A stretch of DNA of 64,000 bases from the human T2T-CHM13v2.0 reference genome, Homo sapiens: NCBI RefSeq assembly GCF_009914755.1, contig NC_060926.1, one strand, 5' to 3'. The notes under the pieces are model-generated. The model worked only from the letters and a program-made list of their open reading frames with translations. It did not search any database and was not told where the DNA came from. The position numbers and the translations under genes were made by a program. Positions 8,801-31,379 of the stretch are shown here, piece after piece; position 1 is the first letter of the stretch; every line of letters starts with the position of its first letter.

Positions 8801-11800
8801 TAGGGGGAAGCGAGCTAGAATTTTAAAAGCCATGCTGACAAAGGATGCTTGTACGTTTTTACAGCATACTTACTCTATTGAGGACAAACTGCTTTCCAAA
8901 CAGATAATTAATCTTTGGATCATAGAAAGCAAAGTTCAGTGTATATATTATATATATGCATGTATACAGAATGCTTATGAAAATTCTGGGGGACAGTGAT
9001 GGTAATTCTTGACAAAATCAACATTGCCACACACATGCACATGCATACATATGCGTGTGTGCATGTTTGTGTCAGTCAAGTTGTTAACGTGTTCAAGTCA
9101 GAGCATACAGGTTACCTGGATCTGAGTGTTTGCAGGTGGGCTTATCCACTTGTTTTCTCTTTTCACACATCATTAAAAAAAACTAGTTAATTTAATCAAC
9201 ACAATCAGAAGGCAATTAAGTAGAGAAAAAAAAATGATTCCAGCCATTTTTACTGAATTGCTTCTGACTGAATTAACCTTCTAATACAGTTGATCTTGTA
9301 GTATGCTCTTCTCAATGCCTGTCTCTTTCTTCTCTTCCTTTCCCCCAGTTCATCTACATCCTAACATTTCACTCTCCTTCTCTCCCTTTTGTCCTCTCGT
9401 TGGCTCCTAATTGGATTCTTCTTCTTTCCTTCAACATGTTAAGAAGCCTTTTCCACTGGCCGGTATTCCCATTCACTCTCCTGTCTCCCCTTCCAACACA
9501 CATGTACCTTACCCGGCCCCAATGAAAAAAAAAGAAATGCTAAAGCTGATTTTTCTTTTTTTGACTTACAGACGTTTGAAACTATTGCTTTGCTGAAAAC
9601 ATCTGACTGCCAGGCTAGGATGTGACACTTAAGGTAATTGTGATTTTTTTTTTCCGCCTTTAGAGACCTCTTCATCTGAAAGGTTCTTGGGTCCCCACTT
9701 GGTGTAAAGTTTTGGCCATCTCTTGAACTGTTTCCTCCTCAGTATAAAGCCTTTGTGAAGGTGTGTGGGAGCTGCAAGGCAAGCAGTTTTCTGAGGAGTT
9801 GGGGTTAGGGATGTAATGTTAATGTTCAGGAATCCTTCTCTGTGCCCACTTTGGAAATACTTCCTCTTATCTTTCATTCAGGATGCAGGGGATAAGGCAA
9901 AAGTGCAGGCCACATGCAAGAGATTTTGAATTATGCATTAAGCTGATAATGCCCCAGAATGCAAGCTTATGTCAATAAATAACTAGGCTGGCAGGAGGAA
10001 GGCAGTCACCTTACCAGTGCGGAGGGTACCACATAGGGAGAGAACTAGAGGAAGACGAGGTGAAGGGTGAAAGGCGCTCACATCCTGTTAGCTTGCTCTG
10101 ATGAAGAAGCAAGAAGAGTAAGTTAATATTGAAATTACTGTCTAATGCCTATCTGCTTTTAAATGGATTTAGCCAAGGTAACAAGACAATCTCTAAGGTG
10201 GGCCCTGTGTGTTCAAGGATGCATGTGTGGCGGGGTTAGCCCTTCTGTGGAGCTGTATGTAAAGAAATTCTGTCTGCAGAGAAATTCATGAATTCCTTAA
10301 TGGGACCCATACATTCTTTAAAAGGGCAAGAATTTTGGTGGCAAAATTTGGCAAAATTCATAATGGGACACTCAAGGTTTTGTTTCACCAGGTATTCTTT
10401 TCTGATTATGCCGTAGAATAGCAGTAAAAGTTAAGCAAGTGGAAGAAGCAGGATTAAAAGAATGCCAAAAATTGTGTCCCTGGCACATGATACAGGACTA
10501 CCCAATGCTGATGAGAAATGATTCTTTAATCTTTGTGTTATTTCTCTTGCCTTAGTAAAATGCATCAATAAACGTGACTATCTTCTGTGAGAAATGAACA
10601 GTGGTGCACACGCCAGCATATACCTGCACACACACACACACGATGTTTAAAAAAAAATTAGTCCTGTTTCTCAAGGAAATGGAAACTGTCTGGGTGTGTG
10701 GACCCTGGGAGATGGATACTTGAACCTTTATCTATTTTTTCCTTACCAAAAAGAAGAAGGAATTTCATATGCGTTTTACCATTTTCTTAGTTTTAGACAG
10801 CAATTTGCAGCCCCTGGTTATGCAATCTGAAGCTTTTGCTCAGATTCTCTTAGCAATGTGTGCATTTGCAAGGCCAGTTCTATAGGCCCACATGCATATA
10901 CACACTGGCAAATTAAAAATGGACCTGGGAAAACACCCTTCTCCTAGGAGAGTCATATCAAGCAGTGTTTAAATTAAATAATTTGCAGAGTGTAGGGAAT
11001 AAAGCTTTGTAGCAGTATCTGGAGGTTATCTTCCCTTGGGAAATTTCTGCCATTTAGTACAATCTGGTGCATGCCAATGAGACACACACTCATGCATACA
11101 CACACTAGTAGATATATTTTATTTTACATCTAAATTATATTTATTTCTTTAGGTTATCTGCCATTTCATGTTCATGTTGAGGAGGAAAAAAAAAGAGACA
11201 AACTTCTTGTGAAGGGTTGAGGTCATTAAGATCCAAACAAAAGCAAAGAAAGGTTATTAGTGAGCAGAAATGAGGGAGGGCTGACTGTGGCGTAAAGCCA
11301 GTTACCCCACAGCTTCTGGGGGAGCATGGCTGTGATTGGGAGACTGATCAAGCTCAGGTCACTGATTTTGCTCCCAGCCCATTGACTGGTGGTAAAAGGG
11401 GAGCCATTGTTGTGATGAGATAATGTGAGTAGGTAAGCCACAACTAGCCGAAATTAGTTGATTTCTTGCTTCTTGTCTTCCTTAACCAATATCAAAGCCA
11501 AATTGCATGTTAAGGAGTTTGTCGGTTAGAACCTCATGCTATGTTTCTAGTTAATGCATTCCTCTATAGCCAAATGTATTCTTAGCGTAATCAGCATACC
11601 TGTCCACCTGTGGAGAGAATGAAGCCTGTCACATGTAAGGATGTTGAATGAAATGTTAGCAGGACAAGAGAGGGTTAGAGGGAGAGGGAGAGAGAGAACG
11701 CGCACAAACAGAAGAAGATATCTACCTCTGTACAGGTTATTTTGAAAGATCCTATTTATAAAAATTGGGATAGGCTCAAGTGAAAATAGTTATTTTTTCC

Positions 11801-28192: not shown

Positions 28193-30656
28193 TGTGGGAG
28201 GGGTAAGGAGTAACGGAGGAGAAGGTCATTATGCTGTCTATGGGGACTTTCACCAATTTCTTTTCTGCTCTCTAAAATTCACCTCATTCACTTGAGGTTG
28301 AGGCAAGTGTCATTCAGAAAACTTCCATTCCTGTTTACTGTAATACCTGTCTCTAGTCTATTCTAATTTTATGAAAGATTTACTTTCAACCAAGATTGTA
28401 CTCACTGTAAAGGAGAGTCTGGTGGATATTTCTTTTCTCATCACAGATAAAAATTATCTTTAAAGTACACCTACCTACAAATTCTGTACAATAGTACCAA
28501 TTTGAAATACATAGCTTGCTAACTTGAATATCTTATACATTTGTGGTAAGAAGTGGTGAAGACATTTAAATTATAATAATCCTGGAGATGTGAAGGGTTA
28601 TCCAGGATGGAGGAACTTTGCGTAGGTATAACCATTGCAGGGAGGCCTACTTGACAGAGGAAATAACTTGCTTGCAGGTTAGGGAGTGATAAACTATTGT
28701 AAACTAAAGACTCTTACATTCATTTAAATAGAAAATCAATACCTACAAACATGTTGCCAGATATTTGTTATTTATTACCTTCCTTAGTAAAGGTATAAGA
28801 CTAATCTGTAATTAGCACATTTACGTTCTAAATGGAAAGCTCTCAAAGAACTTACAAACATTAAATGAGCAACTACTGTAAGGTTAAACACTGTGCTGCC
28901 CCACATGGCTGCTCTTGTGGTTTTAAAAGTGCATAGATGACAAATCACATTCTAAAATAGTATATTTCTCTCTGCACATTCTTCTAGCACAGAAAGAACA
29001 CACTAACATCTTACCAAAAGTTTAAATTTGACTAATTCTGAATTAATGTAAACACATCATTAACTCTTATTACCATGATGATTATTTTTATTCAGGGTTA
29101 TGCAGAATTATTTGCACTTGTCCCTTAACTAAAGGAGACATTTACTTTTCTTTCATTTCTTAACAGAATGGAGAAATGCATCTATCCTTTCTGTTGGTTT
29201 TCAAATGGTGTTGACAAAAATATCTTTGATCTTACTTAAGAACAGAATGTGTTGGCCAGTTAAATAGCAATGATAACTAAGAGCAAACTCTCCCCAGTGT
29301 TTCGTATAGCTCAGTGTGTCTAAGGGAATTGTGTGGCTATTTTACTGCTGTTTCTCGACAGGTTTTTCATAGTTCTTTTTATAGCTAATATATTGTTCTG
29401 GAGCTCCATTCTTTCTAAATACTGGGGAAAAATGAGAAATCCAGGGCTACGGCCATGCCTGTGGCAGTTAAGTATTGATGATGAAATTGGTGAGGCATTA
29501 AGGAAGTGTGAGTTGGTAAGCAGGTGATACATTTAAAAGGGAAAACAAAATGGGAAGAATGGTCTGTTGGATGTTGCAAAAATTACAGAAATATCTTTAG
29601 CTTTATGCACCCTTATGTGCATAATGGTAGCAGCGTTGGTGGTTGGGGCATTGGAGTATTTTTACACTGTTTGGGATGTTGTCCTAAGTGAATTGCCTTA
29701 ATATTTTCCATAGAGGCAGGAATCTGAATAAATACTATATATGTTCACATATGTATCCTTGTATATGTTTTTGATTGGAAACAATCCTGTCATAAAATAC
29801 TTGCCTACTCTGCTAAATTAATATGAGTGTATTTATAGTCATGGGAATGATTTAATGTTGTTTGATAATCTTCTGTTTTATTTATACTGAAAAATTAAGT
29901 AAGAAGCAGAGAAAAACGAAAAAGTGGTTTGTTAAATTCATTTTACCTACTGTTCTTTTTTCTTTTCTTGTGTTTTCTTCAAATTAATCAATTAAAATGC
30001 ACAGATGTTCAATTAAAACTATAAAAATTTTCCATGGCTACAGCTGTTTTGAAGCTGCATTGTTGAAAATTTAACATATCTAGTAATGATTCCCTCTCAG
30101 AAGAAATTAAATTAATGACTTTGCTAGATTATTTTCCATTTGATAAATTAAACAAAATTAGAAAAAAAACTGAGACTTACTCTGCCTGCTACCTTTATTA
30201 ATTAGCATGATAGACTAGCAGATATTAATATGAAAAGGCAACAAAATGGAAAATGTTTCTTATTTTCCAAGTGAAATACCTTCAGGACTGCAGTTTATCT
30301 TATCGGCAAATGGTTACATGGTATAAATTATTAAAATTTTACCTGTAAATAGCAGACAAATGACAAATTTCATAATCCCACATAATAGAAATGGCAGAGA
30401 TGTGATTATGTGGAGCTGATATAAAAATTTTTTTCACATTTTTGTCCACCTTGTGCATGCTAGTCAGTGACCCTTAAATAATAAGTAGAGAAACAGGATC
30501 TTTTTTCTCAGTCATGTTGCTTTATCTCCAGGAAAATTTGATTTTTTTTCTCATTTTCAATTTATTCTTTAATTTTTAAAGATCTTTCTAGTCATTTTTT
30601 TTCTTATGCCAAAACTAGTAGATGGTCATTGCATTAGGGTTCTCCAGTATCAAAAG

Positions 30657-30658
<2 letters not shown>

Positions 30659-30702
<44 letters not shown>
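30659..30702. repeat. (GT)22 perfect microsatellite
   Basis: Seen directly. Confidence 0.97.
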
Positions 30703-30704
<2 letters not shown>

Positions 30705-31121
30705 CTAGAGAGAGATTTATTTTAAGGAATTGGCTCTCATGATTGTGGGAGCTGGCAATTCTGAAATTTGTAGGATAGATTGGCAGCCTAGAAACTCAGG
30801 CAGGAATTGATGTCGTATTGAGTCCAAAGTCTGCAGGGCAGGACGAGCTGTCTAGAAACTCAGGCAGAGTCTGTATGCTGCAGTCTTGAAACAGAAAGAA
30901 CGACATTCTTTCCTTTGAGACTTTCAACTGATTGGATGAGGCCCACCCACATTATAGAGGGAAATCTGCCTTCCTTAAAATCTACCAATTATAAATGTTA
31001 ATAAATGTTAATCACAACTAAAAAATTCCTTCACAGCAACATCTAGACTGGCTTCTTATGAGTTTAAAATGTTTTAAACTTCATTTGCTTATGGATCCCA
31101 CAGATGACAGCCAGCTTTTAC

Positions 31122-31220
31122 CTGCACATGAGGGGTAGCACTGTCAGCATGGTAGGGTTGCCACAGGCAGGCACCGGGCAGGTGATCAGGGCACACATTT
31201 ACCATTCGTTGTGACAGTAG
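31122..31220 (-). pseudogene. CRIM1: Disabled fragment of a CRIM1 VWC-domain exon (stop codon and frameshift), followed by a donor site and intron-like sequence to ~31052
   Basis: Minus strand translates YCHNEW*MCALITCPVPACGNPT (16-aa core at 31198-31151), then after a small deletion QCYPSCA-G|GTAAAAG. CRIM1 as I remember it reads CYCLNGREMCALITCPVPACGNPTIHPGQCCPSCAD. Identified from memory, no search run. Confidence 0.85.
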
Positions 31221-31379
31221 GATAGGCACCATATGCTGGGCACCATAGCCTAGCTAAGTTGACACATAAAATTAACCATCACACTAATTAAGAAAATTTT
31301 AGAAAATAAAAACTAACTAAAAACACATGTAATAAAGCCCTTTCAAATGATCTCTGCTAAATGTTTCAGTGTATATCCC

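What the first reader, a model, noticed from the sequence alone, without database searches (positions are those of the whole stretch)
31052..31235. Unspliced CRIM1 exon-intron fragment captured inside an MLT2 LTR
Seen: ~180 bp of non-LTR sequence interrupts the LTR. Its minus strand reads TAC TGT CAC AAC GAA TGG TAA ATG TGT GCC CTG ATC ACC TGC CCG GTG CCT GCC TGT GGC AAC CCT ACC ... CAG TGC TAC CCC TCA TGT GCA G|GTAAAAG, then ~70 nt of intron-like DNA. From memory, MCALITCPVPACGNPT...QCCPSCA is the end of a CRIM1 von Willebrand C domain. There is no poly(A), no TSD, and the exon/intron junction is retained, so it is not a processed pseudogene. Inference: templated capture of CRIM1 genomic DNA or pre-mRNA during break repair. 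YCHN matches what I recall of the mouse protein (human YCLN), so it may preserve an ancestral allele and be datable. The donor lies just downstream of the LTR 5' end in the same orientation. It is too short for the ORF track.
Basis: partly seen in the sequence, partly recalled or inferred. Interest (0 to 1): 0.85.

Follow-up and report, generated by a model that had tools for sequence, protein, structure and literature searches.

The report
Old CRIM1 gene scrap patched into LTR
A 176-base scrap of the CRIM1 gene, spanning an exon end and the start of the next intron, was pasted into an old retroelement LTR 22 million bases away on human chromosome 2, most likely as a patch during repair of a broken chromosome; it is a dead, ordinary relic that keeps an older form of the gene.

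Summary
On the minus strand, window 31223-31081 aligns in one collinear piece to chr2:36,520,322-36,520,469. That is its only other match in the genome (87% identity with gaps, E 1e-43). The target is the last 107 nt of a 210-nt CRIM1 exon plus the first 41 nt of the following intron. Its translation is 100% identical to human CRIM1 isoforms, and the exon boundary is confirmed by the protein.

Of the 29 other copies of the host LTR examined, 22 run straight across the site without the insert. The insert is 176 nt (31227-31052). It has no poly(A) tail and no target-site duplication. About 6 nt of LTR are missing, 4 nt at one junction are unassigned, and so is a 29-nt tail at the other.

This matches a "class 2 templated sequence insertion", a known product of double-strand-break repair. 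Whether the template was DNA or pre-mRNA cannot be decided here.

The copy is dead: it carries an in-frame stop, a 5-nt deletion and replaced cysteines. It keeps His where catarrhine CRIM1 now has Leu. Together with 9% divergence, that places the capture before the catarrhine ancestor.

This is a known kind of event with no sign of function, so interest is low. The LTR looks MaLR/MLT1-like rather than MLT2, but that is from recall only.

The parts
31228..31284 (-). 5' part of the host LTR (solo LTR of an old, abundant family), up to the break
   Evidence: 22 of 29 other genomic copies align to window about 31285-31235 at 79-92% identity. 12 of the 22 copies shown have the same GGT just before the break point.
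31224..31227 (-). 4 junction nucleotides (GCCT) of uncertain origin. They may be untemplated. Alternatively they are the start of the CRIM1 piece after a 3-nt loss; in that case GGT is a 3-nt microhomology between the LTR and the donor.
   Evidence: The sequence is read. An anchored extension test gave no positive score, so extension of the homology here is not supported statistically.
31122..31223 (-). Copy of the 3' end of a CRIM1 coding exon (end of a von Willebrand C domain), now dead
   Evidence: It aligns to L002 1501-1607 with 10 mismatches in 102 aligned positions and 5 nt deleted. The donor exon translation matches Pfam VWC at 5.3e-10 and is 100% identical to human CRIM1 isoforms. The copy has an in-frame TAA, and Cys-to-Ser, Cys-to-Tyr, Gly-to-Glu and Arg-to-Trp changes.
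31081..31121 (-). Copy of the first 41 nt of the CRIM1 intron that follows that exon, including the GT splice donor at 31121-31120
   Evidence: It aligns to L002 1608-1648 with 3 mismatches in 41. The boundary is confirmed by the protein: CRIM1 continues ...CCPSCA|DDFVV, whereas genomic read-through gives GKSW...*.
31052..31080 (-). 29-nt AT-rich tail of the insert, source unresolved
   Evidence: It does not continue the donor intron (extension score 0). A genome-wide pattern search with up to 3 mismatches found only the window itself. The best local candidate is L002 2122-2141, 474 nt further down the same intron on the same strand, with 18 of 19 aligned bases identical plus one gap. 13 of 2000 shuffles reached that score, and 1 of 98 control genomic chunk-strands scored as high.
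30706..31051 (-). 3' part of the host LTR after the break. It may continue beyond a (CA)n run to about 30630.
   Evidence: 40 further genomic places align at 67-83% identity (41 rows besides the window itself). Pairwise alignments start at window 31047-31058 and run to about 30706. Two weak matches reach 30630-30633.

Best explanation
A double-strand break inside an old solo LTR was repaired by end joining in the germline of an early primate. A short stretch copied from the CRIM1 gene, 22.2 Mb away on the same chromosome and now in inverted orientation, was used as a patch. The patch carried the last roughly 107 nt of a coding exon and at least 41 nt of the next intron, so its template was either unspliced pre-mRNA (through a cDNA) or genomic DNA. 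The donor stayed intact.

About 6 nt of the LTR were lost at the break. A few nucleotides were added at one junction, and a 29-nt tail of unresolved origin sits at the other. Since then the copy has drifted neutrally. It codes for nothing.

This is an ancient example, presumably fixed, of what Onozawa and Aplan call a class 2 templated sequence insertion.

Shown: the identity of the donor, the collinear exon-intron match, absence of the insert from other LTR copies, absence of poly(A) and TSD, and the decay of the copy.

Inferred: the break-repair mechanism, the germline timing and the date.
For: 1. Unique donor. The genome search gave only the window itself and C2:36520322-36520469, at E 1e-43. 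blastn of the 3148-nt donor locus against the window gave a single HSP, L002 1501-1648 to window 31223-31081, at 87.2%.

2. The donor is CRIM1. 94 of 97 candidates passed E <= 0.001, and the top named hits are all CRIM1. Human isoforms X9 and X10 are 100% identical over 100% of the query. The exon end is confirmed by the protein sequence.

3. It is an insertion into the LTR. 22 of 29 other copies bridge the site with -3 to 41 nt between flanks, against about 184 nt in the window. Copies such as L009, L020 and L030 read GGT, then 6 nt, then CCAG, where the window has GGT, then the insert, then CCAG. That indicates a microdeletion of about 6 nt and no duplication.

4. There is no poly(A) tail, no AATAAA and no TSD.

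5. The size of 176 nt lies within the 73-414 nt range (median 191) of experimental templated insertions. The junction features (microdeletion, possible microhomology, unassigned nucleotides) are those listed for class 2 (PMC5110952; whole main text read).

6. The insert is younger than its host. Insert versus donor gives JC distance 0.097. LTR versus other copies gives about 0.39 pairwise, from 19 HSPs of at least 250 nt.

7. The copy has decayed neutrally. It has a stop codon, a 5-nt deletion and four replacements at residues held by nearly every CRIM1 sequence listed.
Against: No single old event can show its own mechanism, and the empty orthologous site was not seen because no other mammalian genome is available here. 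The 29-nt tail and the 4 junction nucleotides remain unexplained. The proposed 3-nt microhomology is not statistically supported. That the insertion is fixed in humans was not checked; only one assembly is held. RNA involvement rests only on the literature's general claim for this class.
Confidence: 0.8

Rival explanations
1. RNA-templated sub-case. The patch was a cDNA made from nascent, unspliced CRIM1 pre-mRNA (for example by L1 ORF2 acting without its endonuclease) and ligated into the break.
For: The fragment lies wholly inside a transcribed gene and crosses an exon-intron junction. The review states that such insertions are enriched for transcribed sequence, are reduced more than three-fold by reverse-transcriptase inhibitors, and can use intronic sequence (PMC5110952).
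Against: Nothing in the sequence separates pre-mRNA from DNA. There is no splice, no RNA editing signature, no poly(A) and no priming microhomology that can be read. About a third or more of the genome is transcribed (recalled figure), so lying within a gene is weak evidence.
Confidence: 0.4
2. DNA-templated sub-case. Either a broken end invaded, or switched template to, the CRIM1 locus on the same chromosome, copied about 150 or more nt and was then rejoined (synthesis-dependent or microhomology-mediated template switching). Or a free genomic DNA fragment was captured.
For: Donor and target are on the same chromosome. There is a possible GGT microhomology at the 5' junction. A possible second collinear piece from 474 nt further down the same intron would fit a template jump.
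Against: The loci are 22 Mb apart. The microhomology and the second piece are both statistically weak (extension score 0; 1 of 98 controls scored equally).
Confidence: 0.4
3. L1-mediated retrocopy (class 1, target-primed reverse transcription) of an unspliced CRIM1 transcript fragment, whose poly(A) and target-site duplication have since eroded.
For: The tail 31080-31052 is AT-rich, with 14 A in 29 nt.
Against: At the roughly 9% divergence seen in the rest of the insert, a poly(A) tract would still be recognisable. The tail is mixed A/T/C/G. The flanks show loss of about 6 nt rather than duplication. There is no AATAAA, and the target does not resemble the TTTT/A site.
Confidence: 0.04
4. The piece has been co-opted. 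For example, the retained CRIM1 splice donor at 31122/31121 serves a minus-strand transcript, or the piece acts as a regulatory element.
For: The native donor CAG|GTAAAAG is intact.
Against: The hub's gene table lists only LINC01122, on the plus strand, with its sole exon in the window at 9572-9633, and no functional elements. The copy shows neutral decay. No expression data are available here.
Confidence: 0.03

Closest known systems
Class 2 templated sequence insertions / polymorphisms (TSI, TSIP; Onozawa and Aplan, PMC5110952)
   Same: A short piece (176 nt; experimental range 73-414) copied from a distant, unique, intact donor. There is no target-site duplication, poly(A) or polyadenylation signal. 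There is a microdeletion and unassigned nucleotides at the junctions. The donor lies inside a transcribed gene and includes intron sequence.
   Different: The described cases are recent: they are polymorphic in humans or induced in cell lines, and were selected at 95% or higher identity to the donor. This one is about 9% diverged, predates the catarrhine ancestor and is presumably fixed. Its RNA origin is untested.
Endonuclease-independent L1/Alu insertions and NUMT or interstitial telomeric-repeat insertions at break sites (cited in PMC5110952; otherwise recalled)
   Same: Filler DNA patched into a chromosomal break, without a TSD and often with target deletion. These are known from primate genome comparisons.
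   Different: Here the filler is a single-copy gene fragment, not a mobile element, mitochondrial DNA or telomeric repeat.
Processed pseudogene / retrocopy
   Same: A dead, dispersed copy of part of a protein-coding gene.
   Different: The intron is retained, there is no poly(A) and no TSD, and only about half of one exon is present.
Polymerase-theta templated insertions at end-joining junctions (recalled)
   Same: Templated filler with microhomology at repair junctions.
   Different: Those are typically a few to a few tens of nt copied from sequence near the break. This is about 150 nt from 22 Mb away. The 29-nt tail could be of that type, but no local template was found (local scores of 11-13, no better than controls).

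Membership tests
Class 2 templated sequence insertion | [quoted passage not shown] | tested here: met
   There is a single other genomic match, 22.2 Mb away and intact within the CRIM1 gene.
Class 2 templated sequence insertion | No target-site duplication | tested here: met
   Comparison with 22 bridging LTR copies shows about 6 nt lost and none duplicated.
Class 2 templated sequence insertion | No poly(A) tract or cryptic polyadenylation signal | tested here: met
   Read directly from the sequence. The tail is mixed sequence with no AATAAA.
Class 2 templated sequence insertion | End-joining marks at the junctions (microdeletion, microhomology, untemplated nucleotides) | tested here: met
   The microdeletion and the unassigned nucleotides (4 nt and 29 nt) are seen. 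The GGT microhomology is possible but not significant.
Class 2 templated sequence insertion | Derived from reverse-transcribed RNA | not testable with these tools
   The sequence is equally compatible with pre-mRNA and with DNA.
Class 2 templated sequence insertion | Insertion confirmed by an empty allele or orthologous empty site | not testable with these tools
   No other human or primate genome is held. The other LTR copies serve only as a proxy.
Processed pseudogene / class 1 (L1-mediated) insertion | Spliced or polyadenylated template, a TSD of at least 5 nt, and a TTTT/A target | tested here: not met
   The intron is retained. There is no poly(A) and no TSD.
Segmental duplication | At least 1 kb duplicated at 90% or higher identity (recalled definition) | tested here: not met
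   Only 143 aligned nt at 87-91% identity. blastn of the 3.1-kb donor locus finds nothing else in the window.
   No Dfam or Repbase library is available. The host is an old, abundant LTR family (2253 first-look candidates, copies 67-83% identical). From recall its termini look like MaLR MLT1.
CRIM1 (functional paralogue or exon) | Open frame with conserved cysteines of the VWC domain | tested here: not met
   In-frame TAA, a 5-nt deletion and two cysteines replaced. Pfam finds no domain in the window's ORFs.

The most novel reading that the evidence does not exclude
The insert is a two-piece, RNA-templated patch. A cDNA from nascent CRIM1 pre-mRNA began about 500 nt into the intron, jumped 474 nt upstream, and ran on into the exon before being ligated into a germline break. 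On the divergence seen, that happened very roughly 30-90 million years ago. It would then be a dated fossil of RNA-templated break repair in the primate germline, and it also freezes the pre-catarrhine His allele of CRIM1.
Probability: 0.15. Interest if true: 0.4.

Novelty: new member of a known kind. Interest (0 to 1): 0.22.

Why it matters
On its own the finding matters little. It is one more example, non-coding and apparently without function, of a described repair outcome.

It does have some modest value. First, templated insertions of single-copy gene fragments can be recognised and dated long after they have fixed. The published catalogue I could read covers polymorphic or induced events only. 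Second, the dead copy is an internal outgroup for one CRIM1 codon: it supports His as the older state and Leu as a change on the lineage leading to catarrhines. Third, a systematic scan for such exon-intron scraps could test, by donor expression and strand bias, whether germline break repair uses RNA templates.

Tried and rejected
1. Continuation of the donor intron into the 29-nt tail: the extension score was 0, so this was rejected.

2. A third-locus donor for the tail: the genome-wide pattern search with up to 3 mismatches and no indels found only the window itself. A more diverged or gapped source is not excluded.

3. A local template for the tail within about 3 kb on either side, on both strands: scores were 11-13, no better than controls.

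4. The tail as a piece from L002 2122-2141: this is kept only as a weak lead. 13 of 2000 shuffles reached its score, and 1 of 98 real genomic control chunk-strands tied it.

5. Extension of homology upstream of 31223: not supported.

6. Other CRIM1 pieces in the window: none were found. tblastn of the 904-aa human isoform at E <= 10 gave one HSP, and blastn of the donor locus gave one HSP.

7. Pfam on the window's own short ORFs: 0 families for 4 of 4 ORFs.

9. The primary papers by Onozawa et al. (2014, 2015) are not held. What I say about this class therefore rests on the 2016 mini-review alone.

10. A search for papers holding both CRIM1 and LINC01122 found 0. That is my only search bearing on whether this fragment is in print.

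11. A second literature search on templated insertions listed 6 papers. I saw only the listing and used none of them.

Full report
**What is there.** Read on the minus strand, the window shows the start of an LTR at about 31284. The LTR breaks off after ...ATGGT at 31228 and resumes at 31051 with CCAGTCTAGATG.... Between these points lie 176 nt that are not LTR.

I searched the genome with the 3' part of the LTR. There were 2253 first-look candidates, 40 were scored, and 42 match rows came back at 67-83% identity. I compared 29 of these copies (L004-L032) with the window pairwise. In 22 of them both flanks align, and the flanks lie -3 to 41 nt apart in the copy against about 184 nt in the window. 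The other 7 have no detectable 5' flank.

Printing the junction stretches shows that copies such as L009, L020 and L030 read GGT, then six bases, then CCAG. At the same point the window reads GGT, then the insert, then CCAG. The insert is therefore specific to this copy. About 6 nt of the LTR were lost, and nothing is duplicated.

**Where the insert came from.** A search of the whole assembly with window 31040-31245 returned two places of two candidates: the window itself and C2:36520322-36520469 on the plus strand (87% identity, E 1.0e-43). blastn of the 3148-nt locus around that place (L002) against the whole window gave one HSP, L002 1501-1648 to window 31223-31081, at 87.2% over 148 columns.

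L002 1398-1607 has the look of an exon, with an AG before it and a GT after it. Its translation (P0001, 69 aa) matches Pfam VWC at 5.3e-10. In a search of longer proteins, 94 of 97 candidates passed E <= 0.001. The named top hits are all cysteine-rich motor neuron 1 protein. The Homo sapiens isoforms X9 and X10 are 100% identical over 100% of the query.

In the human isoform P0012 the match ends at ...CCPSCA and the protein goes on DDFVV. Reading the genome through gives GKSW... and then a stop. The exon therefore ends at L002 1607. The 41 nt that follow in the alignment are intron. The donor is a CRIM1 exon end plus the start of its intron, and the copy is unspliced.

Donor and copy lie 22.2 Mb apart on the same chromosome, in opposite orientation. 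No other piece of CRIM1 is in the window. tblastn of the 904-aa isoform at E <= 10 gave one HSP.

**Anatomy of the insert (minus strand, 5' to 3').**
- 31227-31224: four bases that I cannot assign.
- 31223-31122: exon copy, 102 nt.
- 31121-31081: intron copy, 41 nt.
- 31080-31052: a 29-nt AT-rich tail.

The four unassigned bases could be the start of the donor-derived piece after a 3-nt loss. In that case GGT is shared by the LTR end and the donor. An anchored extension test gives no support for this.

The tail does not continue the donor intron. It has no other genomic match at up to 3 mismatches. It has no better-than-control match within 3 kb of the target.

Its best candidate source is L002 2122-2141, which lies 474 nt further down the same intron on the same strand. 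There, 18 of 19 aligned bases are identical, with one gap. 13 of 2000 shuffles scored as high. Among 98 control strand-chunks of real genomic DNA of similar size, one tied it and three were one point lower. I treat this as a lead, not a result.

The insert has no poly(A) tail, no AATAAA and no target-site duplication.

**State of the copy.** Against the donor there are 10 mismatches in 102 aligned exon positions plus 5 deleted bases. There are 3 mismatches in 41 intron positions. Overall that is 13 of 143, or 9.1%, with a Jukes-Cantor distance of 0.097.

In the exon, the copy has an in-frame TAA where Glu stood. It has Cys to Ser, Cys to Tyr, Gly to Glu and Arg to Trp at residues held by nearly every CRIM1 sequence listed. 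A frameshift follows from the 5-nt loss. Three differences are synonymous and cannot be polarised. The window's own short ORFs match no Pfam family (0 families for 4 of 4 ORFs). The copy is a dead fragment drifting neutrally.

**Date.** Two residues polarise the history.
- At the position that is Leu in human CRIM1, the copy has a His codon. Of the 93 CRIM1 sequences that cover it, 81 have His, 8 Leu, 3 Tyr and 1 Asn. The named Leu carriers are Homo (two isoforms), Pan, Pongo, Hylobates and Macaca; two more are unnamed. The simplest reading is that the copy was made before the His-to-Leu change, and so before the last common ancestor of Old World monkeys and apes.
- At the last residue of the exon the copy has the Ala codon. 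Of 54 sequences covering it, 13 have Ala: the eight primate-type sequences, the rodents Ictidomys and Thomomys, and three unnamed. 38 have Ser, including carnivores, cattle, elephant, tenrec, bats, a shrew and marsupials. This suggests that capture came after the Ser-to-Ala change shared by primates and rodents.

Each inference rests on a single site. Clustering of the database at 90% hides New World monkeys, tarsiers and lemurs.

The divergence fits this bracket. About 12 neutral changes fall over roughly 200 lineage-sites, which is about 6% per lineage with a wide Poisson range of 3-10%. Using recalled primate rates of about 1e-9 per site per year, this gives very roughly 30-90 million years.

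The host LTR is much older. Its pairwise identity to other copies averages 69.5% over 19 HSPs of at least 250 nt, a Jukes-Cantor distance of 0.39.

**Mechanism.** The combination of features is the following:
- a short unique fragment from a distant donor that remains intact;
- no poly(A) tail and no target-site duplication;
- a small target deletion;
- unassigned junction nucleotides.

This is the one listed for class 2 templated sequence insertions in the mini-review by Onozawa and Aplan. I read the whole main text of PMC5110952. That review reports experimental inserts of 73-414 nt (median 191). It also reports enrichment for transcribed sequence, use of intronic sequence, and a more than three-fold drop with reverse-transcriptase inhibitors. 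The authors leave polymerase template switching open. The 176-nt insert fits.

I therefore commit to repair of a germline double-strand break with a templated patch (confidence 0.8). I split the template question about evenly between pre-mRNA-derived cDNA and DNA, because nothing in this one sequence separates them.

An L1-mediated retrocopy is disfavoured. At 9% divergence an A tract would still be visible, and the flanks show loss rather than duplication. Co-option is disfavoured by the neutral decay. The hub's gene table also argues against it: it lists only the plus-strand LINC01122, whose sole exon in the window is at 9572-9633.

**What I could not do.**
- No other primate genome is held, so the empty site was not seen and fixation in humans was not checked.
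- No repeat library is held, so the LTR family is unnamed.
- No paper in the library holds both CRIM1 and LINC01122. That is the only search behind my statement that I found no description of this fragment.

**Verdict.** The thing itself is a new example of a known kind of event, with no sign of function. Its interest is low, apart from its use as a dated relic of the older CRIM1 allele.

Noticed in passing
window 30659-30703: A (CA)n microsatellite of about 22 units sits near the 3' end of the host LTR, just after the ...AAATAAATCTCTCTCT stretch. Several other copies of the LTR family also carry CA runs at or near this place (L004, L005, L013, L014, L022, L023, L028, L030 and L032 gave many CA-run hits). 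The LTR end may therefore seed microsatellites.
   Followed up: no
window 31066-31077 (minus strand, inside the 29-nt tail): The tail contains a near-palindrome: TTTAAAA, two bases, then TTTTAAA. It could form a 7-bp AT hairpin. Such snap-back sequences are seen in some polymerase-made fillers (recalled), but a 7-bp AT palindrome is easily a chance occurrence.
   Followed up: no
L023 (G000:C14:63219879-63223160), about 1100-1155: This other copy of the LTR family has a roughly 27-nt tandem duplication exactly at the stretch where the window's LTR was broken. This may be coincidence or a locally fragile spot in the LTR.
   Followed up: no
L024, L025, L027 (G000:C23 around 150.97-151.50 Mb): Three X-chromosome copies of the LTR are nearly identical to one another in the junction stretch and have the same alignment limits. 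This suggests they lie in a recent segmental duplication or an inverted repeat on the X.
   Followed up: no
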